Positions 14,297 through 28,656 of a stretch of 64,000 nucleotides of DNA are shown in pieces. The notes below the pieces were generated by a model. It was given only the letters and a program-made list of their open reading frames with translations. It did not search any database and was not told the DNA's origin. How positions within the stretch are numbered: position 1 is the first letter of the stretch; every line of letters begins with the position of its first letter. The position numbers and the translations under genes are program-made. The DNA comes from Promethearchaeota archaeon (GTDB taxonomy: Archaea; Asgardarchaeota; Lokiarchaeia; Sigyniarchaeales; SOKP01), in contig JBHLOY010000011.1 of NCBI GenBank assembly GCA_048939995.1, positions 1-64,000 of the forward strand. Direction: 5' to 3'.

Positions 14297-15820
14297 TTGT
14301 CCCAAGATAATAAAAAGTTTCCATATAAAGATCATTTTCTATATCGGATCTTTAATCCAAAAACAATAGCAATATTTGGAGCAAATAATAATTTATTAAC
14401 AACAATGGGTTCAATGCAACTTAGGAATATCCGTGCTGGAAGTGGTTTAGATGATGGGATTTATCCAATTCATCCTCGATTGGATGTAATTCAAGGTTAT
14501 AAAGCGTATAAATCTATAGTGGATTTACCCATCATTCCAGATCTTGCATTTCTTATCTTACCAACAGCTGCAATTCCACAAGTTATGGAAGAATGCGGTC
14601 AAAAAGGAATTAAAAATCTTTTAATAACTTCTGGTGGATTTAGAGAGAGTGGTTTACGTGGAAGAGAATTATCAAAAAAGATTGATTTAATAGCAGAAAA
14701 ATACAGTATGCGATTTTTGGGTCCTAATTGTTTAGGTATTTATAATGGTTGGTATGGATATCCTGAGAAAAATAATACATATTTTAATACTTTCTGGCCT
14801 TATGCTATTCCTCAAAGAGGAAATGTATCAATCATAAGTCAATCTGGTACAATTGCAGCTCAAACTTTCTGGCACGCAAAAGAAATGGGTTTAAAAATTA
14901 GTAAATCAATTTCTGTAGGAAATGAGCAAAATATTGATATAGTAGATTGTCTTGATTATTTAAAAAACGATCCCCAGACAGAAATAATAGGATTATACAT
15001 TGAAGAAGTTAAAAGGGGAAAACAATTTATCAAGTTAGCCCAAGAAATAGTGCCAATTAAGCCTATTGTGGCAATATATGCTGGAGGCACTAACGCAGCA
15101 ATTAGATCTATAATGAGTCATACAGGTTCAATAGCTGGAAATCAAAAAATATTTGATGCTGTGTTTAAAGAAACAGGTATAATTTCCACAGATTTAATTC
15201 TAGATTTTTTACATTATCTTAGAACTTTATCATTTGCTAAATCAAATAACTCTTTCCCTAAAGGTAAAAGAGTTGCGATTGTGACTGATTCAGGAGGAAG
15301 TGGGAGCATGATGGCTAAGATGTTAGAGCTTTACGGATTGAAGGTGCCTGAATTTTCAGAGAGTTTAAAAAATGAGATCTTTAAATTAATTCCTCCAACA
15401 GCTAGTGCCAACAATCCTATTGACGTTACTTTTGATGTTAATTTTCTTAACATCTTTTATAAATTCCCGAAGCTCTTAATGAAATCTGGGGAGATTGACA
15501 GTATAATTGTATACGGTGTATTTGATTTCGATGAAGTTTTGGACATAATGGAAAAGAGTGGTATGGATATCGATGAACAGACAAAAAATCTTAAGTTTAT
15601 GATTGATAATGCTGTTCTAAAACCAATTAAACGCTTAATGAAAAAATATTCTATACCTGTATTCTATGCAGGACCAATCCCTTATAAATATCCATGGTTT
15701 CAGAAATTTCTTTCACATAATATCTCTATTTTTGAATTATGGGACTTTCCTCCAAAATGTTTAGCTATTCTTACTCAATATTCAGAGAATATGAAGAATA
15801 AAACTTTGCAGAAAGAATAA
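14297..15820 (+). CDS. acdA: Acyl-CoA synthetase (ADP-forming) alpha subunit
   Basis: CoA-binding domain, LGPNCLG, SQSG, SHTGS (phospho-His) and NPID motifs. Confidence 0.88.
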   Translation: MSQDNKKFPYKDHFLYRIFNPKTIAIFGANNNLLTTMGSMQLRNIRAGSGLDDGIYPIHPRLDVIQGYKAYKSIVDLPIIPDLAFLILPTAAIPQVMEECGQKGIKNLLITSGGFRESGLRGRELSKKIDLIAEKYSMRFLGPNCLGIYNGWYGYPEKNNTYFNTFWPYAIPQRGNVSIISQSGTIAAQTFWHAKEMGLKISKSISVGNEQNIDIVDCLDYLKNDPQTEIIGLYIEEVKRGKQFIKLAQEIVPIKPIVAIYAGGTNAAIRSIMSHTGSIAGNQKIFDAVFKETGIISTDLILDFLHYLRTLSFAKSNNSFPKGKRVAIVTDSGGSGSMMAKMLELYGLKVPEFSESLKNEIFKLIPPTASANNPIDVTFDVNFLNIFYKFPKLLMKSGEIDSIIVYGVFDFDEVLDIMEKSGMDIDEQTKNLKFMIDNAVLKPIKRLMKKYSIPVFYAGPIPYKYPWFQKFLSHNISIFELWDFPPKCLAILTQYSENMKNKTLQKE

Positions 15821-18122: not shown

Positions 18123-19790
18123 ATGATTAAAAAATCTTTAATTGTGATGGTTGGTATTTTGATTTTTTCCTCAGGAATTATCGTACCAACGATTACAACA
18201 ATAAACATTCATAATGAAAGTGAATGCGAGAACTGCACTCATGAAAATGACAATGATCTTCAATCTTCATATCCTATTTGCATGTGTGGTCATCCTACTT
18301 GCTCTGGAAATATATATACCTGCCCCTGTTGCGGATATCCTCCACCACCTCCACCACAATCTCCACCCCCACCTACTTTATATGATATACCTTCACCTAA
18401 TGATAATGGAATTATAAAACTAGATTGGACTTCATCGTCTGGGGCAACGTCTTACAAGATTTATAGGAGCGACGCAGAATTTGGAACCTATACTCTAATT
18501 GCGACAATTTCCTCTTTATCTTATACAGATACAATTACACCAGGAATCTACTGGTATTATGTTAGAGCTCATAATTATATTGGAGATTCTGGTCCTTCAA
18601 ATAGAGAAGGCGTTGAGGTATATCAACCACCAGAGCCAATTATACTACATGGTAGTACACAGAGATTCTTTCCTCATATGAACACAGCAAAACTAGGATT
18701 TACAATATATACTGAGTTTGCTTATAGTCCAAAGATTGATTTAGTAGTTACAGAAACAGCAACATGTTCCTACAATGTGAATCTGAAAGTGAAAATTGAT
18801 AACACCCTTGTTTTTGATGTGAGCAGGAATTTTTACTCAACAGAAGAATTCTTTAACATAGATGGATCTTTACTTCAATCTGTAGGAACACATCAGATTC
18901 TCATTGAACTAACGAATGGAGATGGTCCAAATGATATATATCGCTTGGAATATCTGAAAATCAAGAACCTTCATTTTAAAAATAGTGAATCTTATGCAAA
19001 TAATCGCTACTCACCAGCTCAGATTTGGCAATATGATTCACAATATGACAATGTAGTAGTGACATTTGGTGACGATGTTCCCTTTTTAAATGATGACTTT
19101 AGAACTGATGATGTTCAAGGAATTGAGTTTTGGCCCTCGATAACAATTCAAATAGATCCTGATTTAGATGGGAAGGTTATAGGAATTGGACCCTTCTTAA
19201 AACCAATCGTTATTAACGAATGGGAATACTACATTCATAACTATAAGATTGATTGGAAGGTTATTGATAAAAATGGGAACTATTTGACATCCTCCTCGGC
19301 TGAATTCAATAAATTAAATAATTATGGTTGTCAAATAGGAGTTAGCGATGGAAACCGAGCTGAAAATTATGAGGCAATAGAATTCTTACTAAGATGTTTA
19401 GAGACAGCTTTTATTATTGGAACAGCTATTTATGAACTTGCCCCATATATAACGATTCCAATAGATTTGTTTTTAACATGGTTACAGTTTGGTTCTGATC
19501 CACCGAGATCAAGTCAAAATTTTATTGATGATAGAACCTATCAAGTTGCATGGACTAATGGTATTGAAGGATCTGGACCATGGACTTGGCCTACCCTTAA
19601 ACTAGAAAGTGCTAGTATGCTCGCTGAATGGGATTTTGAATTTTTTGATACAGGACAGTATCAAATACAGTATCATTGGACTTTAACTACGCGCAAATTC
19701 AGATCGTGGAAAATCTTTCCATATTATCAGGAGACATTGCCCGGGTTTACCCTAGAAGGAGATTATTACGTGAATTTTGAATTTTATTAA
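18123..19790 (+). CDS. Secreted/surface protein with Cys-rich N-terminus, polyproline linker and fibronectin type III domain
   Basis: Signal peptide; CENC, CMCGHPTC, CPCC; PPPPPQSPPPP; LDWTSSSGATSYKIYRS...YWYYVRAHN...SGPSN FN3 pattern. Confidence 0.82.
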   Translation: MIKKSLIVMVGILIFSSGIIVPTITTINIHNESECENCTHENDNDLQSSYPICMCGHPTCSGNIYTCPCCGYPPPPPPQSPPPPTLYDIPSPNDNGIIKLDWTSSSGATSYKIYRSDAEFGTYTLIATISSLSYTDTITPGIYWYYVRAHNYIGDSGPSNREGVEVYQPPEPIILHGSTQRFFPHMNTAKLGFTIYTEFAYSPKIDLVVTETATCSYNVNLKVKIDNTLVFDVSRNFYSTEEFFNIDGSLLQSVGTHQILIELTNGDGPNDIYRLEYLKIKNLHFKNSESYANNRYSPAQIWQYDSQYDNVVVTFGDDVPFLNDDFRTDDVQGIEFWPSITIQIDPDLDGKVIGIGPFLKPIVINEWEYYIHNYKIDWKVIDKNGNYLTSSSAEFNKLNNYGCQIGVSDGNRAENYEAIEFLLRCLETAFIIGTAIYELAPYITIPIDLFLTWLQFGSDPPRSSQNFIDDRTYQVAWTNGIEGSGPWTWPTLKLESASMLAEWDFEFFDTGQYQIQYHWTLTTRKFRSWKIFPYYQETLPGFTLEGDYYVNFEFY

Positions 19791-20010: not shown

Positions 20011-21768
20011 ATGTCAAATAAAATTGGAGAGGAAGATGGATTAAGACAAAAGGTATGGAAAATCATCAATTTAATACAAGCAAATCAAATATTTGTACAT
20101 TCTAAGCATCTCGAAATCAAATATGCTGATGAAGAGAGTGAAGAAGTTAAGACTAAAGTTTTACCTGAAATATTATCTCTATGTGTACTAAACGCGTTAG
20201 TACCTAATTCAGCAATGTTATTAATAGGAGGCCATGGAGGAGGTAAAACAACACTAGTAAAGCTTCTAGGTCGAATGTTTACCGGTATGCCACTAACTGA
20301 TATTGAAAATTCTATTGTAAGGGGCCATAGTGAATCGATCTTAACGGTTAACGGCTAACCACAACTTACAGAAGAAAAATTAGTTGGCACGTTAAAGTTA
20401 GGTAAATTAATGCACGACGGGGAAGAGGAGGTTGTCTGGAGACAATTTGTCACAAGCTTCTGGAAAATCATTGATGAGGTTAATAGATTAACCCCTTATT
20501 CCCAAGATATCTTATTGTCACTTCTTGCTGAAGGAACCATTAAATATTATGATGAAATAACCAACATTCAGAAATATTGCCTTTATGCTACTATTAATCC
20601 TCAGGATGTGGGTACATTTGAATTAAGCGAACCTTTCTTAGACAGATATGGGATATCAGCCCCTATTTCGATGCCAAGTAGCTCTGATTTAGAGTTAATT
20701 TTAAAAGGAAAAGATGAAAAATATAGTGGGTGGGACGAATTAATTCAAGTTCCTAGAGTGTTAACAATTGATGAGTTAATGGAAATCTGGTATTATGTCA
20801 ATAGAATACCCTTTCAAAGTGATGTTAATAATTATATTCATGCGATTGTACGAGAATTTACTCTATGTGATCGGATTGATAAAGGAAGTTCAGAAAATCT
20901 CAAGCCAAGTAAGGGATTATGCTCTGGGTGTCATTTTGATACAACACAGAATATTTGTAATAAGATAGATTCCATTTTAAGTGTTAGAGTTGCGAAGGAT
21001 TTACTAAGATATTCTAAAGCTTTAACTTGGTTAATGAGTTTAAGTAAAATTGACGTCAACATTGTAAATACAGTTGCTCCATTTGTAATTTCACATAGGG
21101 TTCTTTATTCTAGTAGGGAACTAGACAAAGCTCCTTATTGGGGCAATAAATACGAATTTTCAAAAGCTAATCTTAGTCAAATCCAAAAAAGGTTTATAAA
21201 TAGAGCGGTTTGTTACGAAATTACAAAAAAGTTTAGAGATGGAATTGGTATACCTGAAGATTTCTCAACTTTAAAAAATTATAAAAAAAATGATTTAATA
21301 GTAAAATATGATTTAATCCCCTTCGTCAATTCTGTTAAAGATAAAAATTACTCCGGTTTAGCTCAAAAAATACTAAGTGCTGCAAAAAAAGGTGACATTA
21401 AACAATTAGCTGATTTGCGAAATTATCTTATTGAAGATATAGATTTTCCAAATCGCGCCTATTTAATAAACTTATGTAACCAAGAGCTTTATAAACAAAC
21501 AGTTACGGATTATGTCTTCAAATATCTACATAAAGATGAGGTATGGGCGGACATTGCTAGTGAATTTCCTAATTTAGATAATCCAATTAAGGACGCTTTA
21601 AGTAGAAGGCAGACGAAGCAGATCAGAACTGAGGATATATTAATAGAAATAAATGTTAGTGGAACAAATGATGATTCTTTAGTTAATATTCAGTTATCTG
21701 GAGGGTCAGAAGCAATAAAATTAAGGACAATTTTAGATAATCTCAGTTATATTCAGAAGGAGGAATAA
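20011..21768 (+). CDS. MoxR-type AAA+ ATPase, spliced: join(20011..20328,20359..21768), 575 aa
   Basis: Walker A GGHGGGKT is in the upstream ORF, and Walker B IIDE plus ATINP are in the downstream ORF in the same frame. Removing the 30-nt BHB intron gives ...VRGH|PQLTEEKLVGTL... Confidence 0.9.
20329..20358 (+). other. BHB-type intron in a protein-coding gene (30 nt, ends in in-frame TAA)
   Basis: Central helix GGCC/GGCT, bulges ATA and AAC, inner helix GTGAATCG/CGGTTAAC, outer G-C pair plus TGTAAG/CTTACA. Confidence 0.88.
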
Positions 21769-21784
21769 GTTAAATATCATTTTT

Positions 21785-23476
21785 ATGGTAGATGGAAAAT
21801 TCGGAAAAAAGGAACAGCAACATTTAATTAAATTTGCAAGAATTGCTTGGAATAGGACTCTTAAAGAATATTATTATCCTCCATTAAATGACCCTCATTT
21901 TGTATTTGATTACACTCGTAAAGAAGGTTTCTATATTGATCCGGAACATAGATGGCAAATAACTATGAATTTAGCAAATATACCTCTATTTACTGAACAG
22001 GAAGAATACATAAACTATTTCCATGCGATCTCTCTTCATGAGGTCTCTCATTATCAAATCATCCCCTATGATGGTTTAATCAATGCTAAATTACTAAAAG
22101 CTGCAATGAAGCATGTAAATGGAAATTTTGCTCCAATTGTTGTCAATCTTTTTGCGGATCTAGTTATTGATACCAAATTATATAAAAAGTTTCCCGAACT
22201 AATATATTGGGAACTGAAACAGACATATAACTATATTCAGAATAATTATAAAGATCATTTCAGTAATTTCTCAAAACTTTTATTCCGTACCTATGAATTA
22301 CTTCTAAATATTCAATTATCTGAAACTAATTCAAATTCCACAATTGATGATCTATCTGAGCAAATTGTTAAGATTACGTTAAAAGATTTTGAAGATGAAA
22401 CAACTTGGGAACAAAAAGTCGAAAAAATCTCAAGTGTTTTAAAAACCCTCATTTTAGATACATTCACCCCTAAAGTAGGAGCCGAATATGATAAAAATTC
22501 TAGAAGTAAATCTCCTAACCAACCACGTACAGGGGTAGAGATACCAGAAGATGTTTTAGAAATAATGGATAACCCGTTGGAGATTAAAAGCTCTGACAAA
22601 CTTAAAGAAACAAGTGAAGATGAATTAAGAAAAAAGGCAGAAATTTTCGCTAGGGAAACTCCATACTCTGAATTCGGTGCACCTGCCACTCAAGCCGGTT
22701 TAGTAGTTGATAAAAATCCTTTAGCAACTTGGTATAGAGGTTTAGCTAAAAATTTAATTGAAATAAAAATTTATGAAGAAAAATTTGGAGGAAAAATGCC
22801 CATATATCCAGAGCTATGGCGAATTGGAGAACCAATTGATCAATTAGATATAATACAAACAGTACTTACGAGCCCAGTAATAATTCCAAATATTACGACA
22901 AGAAAATGGTCTAAAGAAGATGGTTTTGGCTATTTATCTGATAAGCAACTTCCCGATTTATTGTTAGTCATAGATTCTTCGGGGTCTATGAATTGGAATT
23001 ATTCCGCAAAGGATCCCAGAGGACAGTATCATACTGCTTTAATTGCTTCGTTTGCTGCTCTCCATTATGCGATTACTAAAGGTATTAAATTTAGCATAAT
23101 TAATTTCTCGAACAGACCAATTACATGTGATTGGACAAAAAATTATCATAATGCAGAAGAAGTCTTATTAAAATACCAAGGTGGAGGGACTCACTTACCA
23201 GTTGAATCAATAGAGAGACAGTGTGATACATCAGAGCGGAATTCTCTAGTTCTTATTATTACTGATTTTGCGATATATAATTGGGCTGCTGCTAAAAAAA
23301 CTTTAATAAAATTGTCAGAAAATGGGCATAAGATTGTAGGCTTTTTTATTGGATCCTCAAAAATACCCCAAAATCGATTCAAAAATCTCCTTGATAAGGT
23401 TAATTTTTATCCTATAAAGAATGAAAAAAAGTTAATTAATTTAGTAATTGAAGAAGTAAAGAAGTTTTATCAATAA
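21785..23476 (+). CDS. VWA-domain partner of the MoxR ATPase with an N-terminal HExxH metallopeptidase-like domain
   Basis: LHEVSH motif, MIDAS IDSSGS, GGT and IITD motifs. Adjacent to the AAA gene on the same strand. Confidence 0.88.
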   Translation: MVDGKFGKKEQQHLIKFARIAWNRTLKEYYYPPLNDPHFVFDYTRKEGFYIDPEHRWQITMNLANIPLFTEQEEYINYFHAISLHEVSHYQIIPYDGLINAKLLKAAMKHVNGNFAPIVVNLFADLVIDTKLYKKFPELIYWELKQTYNYIQNNYKDHFSNFSKLLFRTYELLLNIQLSETNSNSTIDDLSEQIVKITLKDFEDETTWEQKVEKISSVLKTLILDTFTPKVGAEYDKNSRSKSPNQPRTGVEIPEDVLEIMDNPLEIKSSDKLKETSEDELRKKAEIFARETPYSEFGAPATQAGLVVDKNPLATWYRGLAKNLIEIKIYEEKFGGKMPIYPELWRIGEPIDQLDIIQTVLTSPVIIPNITTRKWSKEDGFGYLSDKQLPDLLLVIDSSGSMNWNYSAKDPRGQYHTALIASFAALHYAITKGIKFSIINFSNRPITCDWTKNYHNAEEVLLKYQGGGTHLPVESIERQCDTSERNSLVLIITDFAIYNWAAAKKTLIKLSENGHKIVGFFIGSSKIPQNRFKNLLDKVNFYPIKNEKKLINLVIEEVKKFYQ

Positions 23477-27835: not shown

Positions 27836-28656
27836 TTGGTAATTAAAGAATATATTTGCGAAATAACTTTCGCAATTCGCGAAGTTTCGTAGAAGGCAAA
27901 AAAAGTAGAATAGTTATAGATGTATCAACTAGGATAAAAGAAGGCTCTACAGCAATATTAGGATTTGCAGGTATCGGTTTGATTGGCCCAATCGTTGCCA
28001 ATACATTAATAGAACAAATTCCGGACATAAAAGAGATTGGTTTTATAACTTCTGAATACTTACCACCTATAAGTGTATTTTATGATGGTGTTTTAAAACA
28101 CCCGTTTAGATTGTATTATTCTCCTCAATATAATATGATTATAGGAATTGCTGAAGTGCCTTTTCAAGTTTCAACAGCATACAATGATCTTAGTAAAACT
28201 ATTAACAATTGGTTGTTATCTGATGATGTTAAAGCAAAAGAAGTGGTAATATTTCAAGGAATTCCACAGAGAGGTATTATTGATGATTATCCTGTGTATT
28301 ATGCTGCTGAAGCAGATATGATTACAAAATTAGAAGGATACGGGCTTACTAAGGTAGAAAAGGGAATCATTGTTGGGCCCGAAGCTACCATTTTAAATGA
28401 AGCTTTAACTAATAAATTGAAAGCTTATAGTCTTTTCACACCTGTTCTGGAAATTCCTACTCCTGAGGCTGCGGCTGCAATAATTGAAGTATTAAATCAA
28501 ATCTATAACTTAAAGATAGAAACTACAAAACTAATTGAAGAAGGCAAAGAAATCAAAGCAAAAATGCTTGAGTTAGCGGAAAAAGCACAACAATTTCAAC
28601 GACAGCAGCAATTACCAGAACAACCAAAAGAAAGATATACTCAATATTTTCAATAA
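27836..28656 (+). CDS. PAC2-family proteasome assembly chaperone, spliced: join(27836..27863,27893..28656), 263 aa
   Basis: GFAGIGLIG, HPFRLY and PTPEAAA PAC2 motifs. A GTGAT SD and TTG at 27836 lie in a different frame that is joined by removing the 29-nt BHB intron (MVIKEYICEKGKKSRIVID...). Confidence 0.85.
27864..27892 (+). other. BHB-type intron in a protein-coding gene (29 nt, ends in in-frame TAG)
   Basis: Central helix GCGA/TCGT, bulges AAT and AGA, inner helix AACTT.CGC/GCGAAGTT, outer helix TTT/AGG. Confidence 0.82.

What the first reader, a model, noticed from the sequence alone, without database searches (positions are those of the whole stretch)
20329..20358. 30-nt BHB intron with in-frame stop inside the MoxR-type AAA+ ATPase gene
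The ORF track splits this gene between Walker A and Walker B, yet both halves are in the same frame. The insert AGTGAATCGATCTTAACGGTTAACGGCTAA sits between codons H and P of RGH|PQLTEEKL. Independently, the RNA folds as central helix GGCC(20323-26)/GGCT(20353-56), bulges ATA and AAC, and inner stem GTGAATCG/CGGTTAAC. The canonical cleavage sites fall exactly on those codon boundaries. The spliced product is 575 aa. The downstream VWA partner is intact, which argues against a decaying pseudogene.
Basis: partly seen in the sequence, partly recalled or inferred. Interest (0 to 1): 0.92.

Follow-up and report, generated by a model that had tools for sequence, protein, structure and literature searches.

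The report
tRNA-type intron in Asgard ATPase gene
A 30-base hairpin of the kind archaea cut out of tRNAs interrupts an ATPase gene of an Asgard (Loki-type) archaeon, and comparison with relatives shows the messenger RNA almost certainly has to be cut and re-joined, which the papers I could search report inside a coding sequence for only one archaeal gene (cbf5).

Summary
Observation confirmed. Removing exactly 20329-20358 gives a 575-aa MoxR-like AAA+ ATPase, the length of nearly all full-length homologs; all 120 top hits covering the motif read RGH-PQL. The insert is identical in ten independent assemblies of this species. Nine distinct lineages carry a 30-nt insert at this site: the 4-bp central helix pairs in all nine and six pairs show two-sided changes. 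The exon-side helix is only 1 bp (HBh' class). Relatives carry similar inserts at two other sites of the same gene. Both exons, including the 17 codons between the stop and the next ATG, are under purifying selection. The genome encodes a two-subunit splicing endonuclease with the relaxed-specificity loop, and RtcB. At least eight more genes here are split the same way, including the only EF-1alpha and a PAC2 gene in this window (27864-27892). Best reading: an EndA/RtcB-spliced mRNA intron (0.93). No spliced transcript was found, so splicing is inferred. The motif alone is not enriched genome-wide; homology and covariation carry the case. Published precedent found: cbf5 only. This scan has noted the same class before in other Asgard genomes.

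The parts
20011..20328 (+). Exon 1 of the MoxR-like AAA+ ATPase (106 codons, Walker A GGHGGGKT, ends ...IVRGH)
   Evidence: dN about 0.12 against dS 1.6-2.2 versus close intronless relatives
20329..20358 (+). 30-nt BHB-type intron, ends in an in-frame UAA
   Evidence: unique deletion restoring RGHPQL; identical in ten other assemblies; orthologous 30-nt inserts in eight other lineages
20359..21768 (+). Exon 2 (Walker B IIDEVNR, sensor 1, arginine finger region, Cys cluster, C-terminal extension)
   Evidence: codons 20359-20409, upstream of the first ATG, have dN 0 with pS 0.51-0.67 against three close relatives
20323..20326 (+). 5' (exon) strand of the 4-bp central helix, GGCC
   Evidence: Gly codon is GGY in 9/9 intron-bearing against 10/23 intronless genes
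20327..20329 (+). 5' bulge AUA; predicted cut between 20328 and 20329
   Evidence: geometry; the cut position follows from the known EndA rule
20330..20352 (+). Intron-side hairpin (h'): stem 20330-37 with 20345-52, 7-nt loop
   Evidence: five of nine inner pairs show two-sided changes across nine lineages
20353..20356 (+). 3' (intron) strand of the central helix, GGCU
   Evidence: 100% of cells paired
20357..20359 (+). 3' bulge AAC; predicted cut between 20358 and 20359
   Evidence: geometry
20315..20371 (+). Weak exon-exon pairing: G20322-C20360, then 20315-21 with 20365-71 across a 4-nt bulge
   Evidence: MFE fold; the first pair is kept in 6 of 9 lineages
21785..23476 (+). Downstream partner, 563 aa, HExxH and DSSGS (MIDAS-like) motifs; intact
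   Evidence: motifs read by eye; no HMM hit
27836..27863 (+). Exon 1 of a PAC2-family gene (TTG start, MVIKEYICE)
   Evidence: 11 relatives begin MVxKxYxCxxGKxS at this position
27864..27892 (+). Second BHB-type intron in the window, 29 nt, frameshifting; central helix GCGA/UCGU
27893..28656 (+). Exon 2 of the PAC2-family gene; spliced product 263 aa

Best explanation
The 30 nt are an intron of the archaeal tRNA type inside a protein-coding mRNA. The pre-mRNA folds so that the last exon bases GGCC pair with GGCU near the intron end, with a 3-nt bulge on each side and an intron hairpin. The two-subunit splicing endonuclease EndA cuts after the second base of each bulge (20328|20329 and 20358|20359) and RtcB joins the exons, giving an mRNA for a 575-aa MoxR-like ATPase. 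Unspliced mRNA gives a 115-aa fragment without Walker B. The intron is one of a set of 29-37-nt introns in protein genes of this genome. Shown: insert, boundaries, conserved structure, selection on both exons, presence of the enzymes. Inferred: cutting and ligation in vivo, and which enzymes do it.
For: Exact boundary and 575 aa, matching homolog length and RGH-PQL in 120 of 120. Among 105 family genomes with the gene, five carry a stop-containing insert in the main copy, each of 30 nt. Nine distinct site-1 inserts are all 30 nt; 92% of cells paired, six pairs with two-sided changes, 0/500 shuffles as high, slid controls 15-50%; RNAalifold finds the same helices unprompted. 46 protein clusters end at RGH plus S/N/C. 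Two further sites in the same gene have the same geometry. Synonymous exon codons match the helix in carriers. Eight synonymous against three non-synonymous polymorphisms downstream of the stop, P 0.0004. Motif-free census: 8 of 9 frame-breaking inserts but 1 of 13 in-frame indels have a 4/4 central helix at the homology boundary. The only EF-1alpha over cut-off is broken in its P-loop by a 33-nt insert of this shape. EndA alpha with Y/H/K triad and the Lys matching A. pernix K44, a second subunit lacking the His, and RtcB.
Against: No spliced contig or near-identical uninterrupted protein was found. The exon-side helix is 1 bp and absent in 3 of 9 lineages. The MFE uses a slipped register. 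A motif-only genome scan shows no excess over mirror and other-bulge controls. The covariation and codon counts come from related sequences, so shuffles overstate significance.
Confidence: 0.93

Rival explanations
1. Dead gene: a hairpin insertion knocked the ATPase out and the pseudogene has not yet decayed.
For: In-frame stop; most relatives have an intact gene; about a fifth of family genomes gave no match to the gene.
Against: The same insert is shared by lineages only about 70% identical in protein, each otherwise open; dN/dS below 0.1 and equal amino-acid change on the window and intronless branches, 21 against 21; synonymous excess among polymorphisms; the same kind of insert breaks the only EF-1alpha.
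Confidence: 0.02
2. Ribosomal recoding without RNA splicing: stop-codon readthrough (10 extra residues) or a translational hop over the 30 nt.
For: All site-1 inserts are 30 nt, a multiple of three, and form a hairpin next to a stop.
Against: Several orthologous inserts hold two stops; the encoded peptide is not conserved while the pairing is; no homolog has extra residues here; a hop of the T4 gene 60 type needs matching take-off and landing codons (own knowledge), and here they are CAU and UAA; sister inserts of 29, 31, 34 and 37 nt shift the frame.
Confidence: 0.03
3. Split gene: the 115-aa and 452-aa ORFs are made separately and assemble.
For: An ATG at 20410 exists and gene callers annotate two ORFs.
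Against: The 17 codons between the stop and that ATG would be untranslated, yet have dN 0 at pS 0.51-0.67; genes with two inserts would have to be three pieces.
Confidence: 0.015
4. Assembly or sequencing artefact.
For: Metagenome-assembled genome.
Against: Identical insert in four NCBI assemblies and six Logan runs and diverged orthologs elsewhere.
Confidence: 0.005

Closest known systems
cbf5 pre-mRNA intron of Desulfurococcales and Sulfolobales (Yokobori et al. 2009, PMC2738675, citing Watanabe 2002 and Yoshinari 2006)
   Same: Short intron (16-44 nt there, 30 nt here) in a coding sequence, BHB-like boundary, lineage-patchy presence, host with a hetero-oligomeric EndA.
   Different: Different gene and phylum; three intron sites in one gene across relatives; at least nine genes in one genome; cbf5 itself has an open 353-aa frame here; splicing is proven for cbf5 and only inferred here.
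Non-canonical BHB introns of archaeal tRNAs, including Asgard tRNAs (bioRxiv 10.64898/2026.10.13.758758; PMC5829648)
   Same: Same motif classes (this one is HBh' by that paper's definition), same size range, same predicted enzymes; repeated gain or loss.
   Different: The host is an mRNA, so exon pairing must be met with synonymous codons and failure to splice truncates a protein. That preprint does not treat mRNA introns (0 occurrences of 'mRNA').
EndA-cleaved BHB in the 5' UTR of Haloferax HVO_1309 (PMC7714728)
   Same: An mRNA that is an EndA substrate.
   Different: That site lies in the untranslated leader and does not interrupt a reading frame.
Eukaryotic HAC1/XBP1 unconventional splicing (own knowledge)
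   Same: Short structured mRNA intron removed by protein endonuclease and ligase (RtcB in animals).
   Different: Cut by IRE1 at stem-loops, not BHB; stress-regulated, whereas nothing here shows regulation.
MoxR-family AAA+ ATPases with VWA partner (host gene; PDB 2r44)
   Same: AAA_5 and AAA_3 hits; the intron lies at the position equivalent to RIQF|TPDLLP of 2r44.
   Different: 575 aa with a Cys cluster and C-terminal extension; partner has an HExxH N-terminal part; substrate unknown.

Membership tests
Archaeal BHB (EndA-spliced) intron | 4-bp central helix between exon -6..-3 and intron -6..-3 | tested here: met
   4/4 in the window and in all nine lineages
Archaeal BHB (EndA-spliced) intron | Cut after the second base of each 3-nt bulge restores the host | tested here: met
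   Predicted cuts equal the single homology-defined boundary
Archaeal BHB (EndA-spliced) intron | At least one flanking helix of 2 or more pairs (h or h') | tested here: met
   Intron-side helix 7 of 8 pairs, covarying; definition
Full hBHBh' class | Exon-side helix h of 2 or more contiguous pairs | tested here: not met
   One pair (G20322-C20360), kept in 6 of 9 lineages; class is HBh'
Archaeal BHB (EndA-spliced) intron | Host encodes EndA able to cut relaxed motifs, and a ligase | tested here: met
   Two EndA paralogs, alpha with Y/H/K and the L1-loop Lys; RtcB. Activity not tested.
Archaeal BHB (EndA-spliced) intron | Removed from the RNA in vivo | tested here: inconclusive
   No spliced contig or protein found in the collections searched; I could not tell whether RNA data for this species were among them
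Archaeal BHB (EndA-spliced) intron | Cleaved by purified EndA | not testable with these tools
   Needs biochemistry
cbf5 mRNA intron | Located in cbf5 | tested here: not met
   Host is an AAA+ ATPase; cbf5 frame is open in this genome
Group I / group II intron or other curated RNA family | Ribozyme core or Rfam match | tested here: not met
   30 nt; no Rfam match at E up to 1
Translational bypass element (T4 gene 60 type) | Matching take-off and landing codons | tested here: not met
   CAU before the insert, UAA as its last codon
MoxR AAA+ family | AAA_3/AAA_5 domain with Walker A and B and an adjacent VWA gene | tested here: inconclusive
   AAA_5 over cut-off, AAA_3 just under; sources name homologs MoxR; VWA partner only by motif reading

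The most novel reading that the evidence does not exclude
Lokiarchaeia run a gene-expression layer of EndA/RtcB-spliced mRNA micro-introns, tens per genome and placed in conserved catalytic motifs, and splicing efficiency is used as a regulated switch (for example on this ATPase and the PAC2 chaperone), a prokaryotic counterpart of HAC1/XBP1-style control. The multi-gene splicing part is well supported (about 0.9); the regulatory part has no direct support.
Probability: 0.2. Interest if true: 0.95.

Novelty: new variant of a known kind. Interest (0 to 1): 0.84.

Why it matters
Archaeal mRNA splicing is treated as a one-gene curiosity (cbf5). Here the closest prokaryotic relatives of eukaryotes appear to need protein-catalysed splicing to make ordinary and essential proteins, including EF-1alpha. 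That changes what the archaeal ancestor of eukaryotes may have done with its mRNAs, bears on how translation and splicing coexist without a nucleus, and means Asgard gene catalogues hold systematic split-gene errors (46 database clusters are truncated fragments of this one gene). It is directly testable with junction reads, one peptide, or a short RNA and recombinant EndA.

Tried and rejected
Motif-only genome scan for gene-joining BHBs: 236 hits against 229-258 for seven control geometries, so useless without homology; a first version timed out. Search for spliced RNA: exact junction pattern with 0-30 nt gap in JGI contigs gave nothing; no uninterrupted protein above 84% identity to the window; best identity between an intron-truncated fragment and a full-length protein was 96.8%. 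Gene tree of 106 columns was too unresolved to order gains and losses. A 21-nt 'disrupting' insert at window 3493 was an antisense-frame artefact; the real gene is on the minus strand and stays open. Rfam and sigma-70 scans gave nothing relevant. ARAGORN found only 24 tRNAs; I saw no obvious copy of the insert among their introns by eye, not tested formally. The metG lead was not located. Nine literature searches found no report of mRNA BHB introns in Asgard archaea; the library lacks most subscription papers.

Full report
Observation. The 30 nt at 20329-20358 are as described. They separate a 115-aa ORF (20011-20358) from the same frame downstream. Of 22 sliding 30-nt deletions only this one gives RGHPQLTEEK, and the product is 575 aa. 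The exon bases GGCC (20323-26) pair with GGCU (20353-56); the bulges are AUA and AAC; the intron hairpin has 7 of 8 pairs. The exon-side helix is one pair followed by a 4-nt bulge and 7 more pairs, and the MFE slips to a 3-bp central helix with the 4-bp register 0.5 kcal/mol higher. By the definition quoted the motif is HBh'.

Organism. Homolog labels are mostly Promethearchaeota/Lokiarchaeota, so this is by inference a Loki-type Asgard archaeon; the genome is 3.75 Mb, 30.5% GC, 98% complete.

Is it an insertion? Yes. Relatives from 85% down to about 52% identity read RGHPQLTEEK without a gap. Nearly all full-length homologs listed are 574-577 aa and all 120 that hold the motif read RGH-PQL. 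Of 105 family genomes with the gene, five have stops in the main copy, each from a 30-nt insert. The window's insert is identical in four NCBI assemblies and six Logan runs, so it is not an assembly error.

Is the structure more than chance? The motif alone is not: a genome-wide scan of gene-joining positions gave the same counts for true and control geometries. What counts is that homology fixes one boundary and that a 4/4 helix with at least 7/9 inner pairs occurs at 0.06% of 30-nt boundaries. Nine distinct lineages carry an insert at this site; all are 30 nt and align without gaps. The central helix pairs in 100% of cells, the whole structure in 92%, six pairs show two-sided changes, no shuffle of 500 reaches this and slid registers give 15-50%; RNAalifold predicts the same two helices. 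These sequences are related, so the shuffles overstate significance. The window's G20332 is a private change that breaks one pair and removes a first UAA found in most orthologs. A protein search with exon 1 returned 46 clusters ending at RGH plus S, N or C, so the intron is widespread in metagenomes, though only nine were checked at DNA level.

Other sites in the same gene. A second 30-nt insert after GTFE occurs in at least six lineages, with central helices UUCG/CGAA, UUUG/CAAA and UUCG/CGGG and a 7-8-bp exon helix. A third lies in Walker A in G078. Several genes carry two inserts. Carriers use exon codons that fit the helix: Gly GGY 9/9 against 10/23 and Arg AGG 6/9 against 1/23 at site 1; Gly GGG 6/7 against 3/28 at site 2 (not independent samples).

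Is the gene alive? Against close intronless relatives dN is 0.09-0.13 and dS 1.3-2.2 in both exons; the window and G029 branches each show 21 amino-acid changes; the 17 codons between the stop and the next ATG have dN 0 at pS 0.51-0.67; within the species 8 of 11 polymorphisms downstream of the stop are synonymous, P 0.0004. The linker result argues against a split gene as well as a pseudogene. Readthrough is unlikely because several orthologous inserts hold two stops and their peptide is not conserved.

Is it alone? A motif-free census against 1.2 Mb sampled from six relatives found nine distinct frame-breaking inserts, eight with a 4/4 central helix at the homology boundary, against 1 of 13 in-frame indels. 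In this genome it found the ATPase, a PAC2 gene in this window (27864-27892, 29 nt; all 11 relatives are uninterrupted), a CoA-transferase and fwdA. Leads from earlier notes of this scan were checked on the sequence: mevalonate kinase (31 nt), dnaG (34), purA (30), uL11 (37) and EF-1alpha (33) each have a 4/4 central helix at a boundary that restores the expected motif. The interrupted EF-1alpha is the only match over the family cut-off in the genome, and a few relatives also show stops or a truncated match there. The census covered 509 kb; three inserts besides the ATPase in that span suggest very roughly 15-40 per genome (inference; shared and near-terminal introns are missed, conserved genes are over-sampled).

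Machinery. Two EndA paralogs are present. One has the Tyr/His/Lys triad and aligns with A. pernix alpha, including the Lys equivalent to K44; the other lacks the His. That is the two-subunit type reported to cut relaxed motifs such as HBh', with the L1 loop noted for Asgard archaea (PMC5829648). RtcB is present.

Mechanism. Shown: insert, boundaries, conserved fold, selection, enzymes. Inferred from the known EndA rule: cuts at 20328|20329 and 20358|20359, ligation by RtcB, translation of a 575-aa ATPase; unspliced mRNA gives a 115-aa piece without Walker B. Because the nine site-1 inserts share sequence, one origin followed by losses or lateral spread is more likely than nine new insertions, but the tree could not order events. 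Whether splicing is regulated is unknown.

What is missing. No spliced RNA contig or protein was found.

Comparison with the literature. The papers found name cbf5 of Crenarchaeota as the only coding-sequence BHB intron (PMC2738675; PMC7714728, which adds an EndA site in a 5' UTR). A 2026 preprint on Asgard tRNA introns does not mention mRNA. Further searches found no report for Asgard mRNAs; subscription papers are largely not covered. This scan has noted the same class in other Asgard genomes; those notes are not independent support.

Verdict. A real BHB-type mRNA intron, splicing inferred at 0.93; a new variant of a known kind (known chemistry, new host class and scale); interest 0.84.

Noticed in passing
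window 27864-27892 (+): Second BHB-type intron, 29 nt and frameshifting, after codon 9 of a PAC2-family gene (start TTG 27836); 11 relatives are uninterrupted.
   Followed up: yes
G000 C11:167313-167345 (-), L119: The only EF-1alpha is split in its P-loop by a 33-nt insert with AUGG/CCAU central helix and 8-bp inner stem; G029, G018, G103 also have stops inside, and several genomes match only from model position 12-20.
   Followed up: partly
G000 C17 (fwdA), C38 (CoA-transferase), C28 about 379867 (mevalonate kinase), C11 (dnaG), C7 about 109900 (purA), C23:129198-129234 (uL11): Further 30-37-nt inserts with a 4/4 central helix at conserved motifs. The dnaG intron starts AG and ends GGCUAA like the ATPase intron.
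   Followed up: partly
L034:18417-18476 (G078), L119, purA: Three unrelated introns sit in P-loop motifs (GK|T, G|KS, GD|EGKGK), and several others follow Gly codons; Gly-rich motifs may supply the G-rich helix strand.
   Followed up: no
G007 C2 (32 nt in another AAA+ gene, MNPE|EGELR); G105 (30 nt in a GGLGPTFDD motif); G008 C11 (30 nt in ribosomal protein S3, 3 of 4 central pairs by my reading): Introns of the same kind in relatives where G000 is uninterrupted.
   Followed up: partly
L116 (after GTFE): A site-2 insert of divergent sequence with TAG as first codon; not folded separately.
   Followed up: no
G131:C132:24566-25150: A second, partial copy of the ATPase with a stop but no insert, probably a true pseudogene fragment.
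   Followed up: no
whole genome: ARAGORN finds only 24 tRNAs in a 98%-complete genome, several mis-called, suggesting many multiply interrupted tRNA genes.
   Followed up: no
window 18123-19790 (+): 555-aa ORF with signal-like N-terminus, Cys motifs and a poly-Pro run, no Pfam hit; present upstream of the ATPase in this species but not in locus L113.
   Followed up: no
window 14297-15820 (+): Acyl-CoA synthetase-like ORF has about 4 extra in-frame residues against a paralog match; not examined.
   Followed up: no
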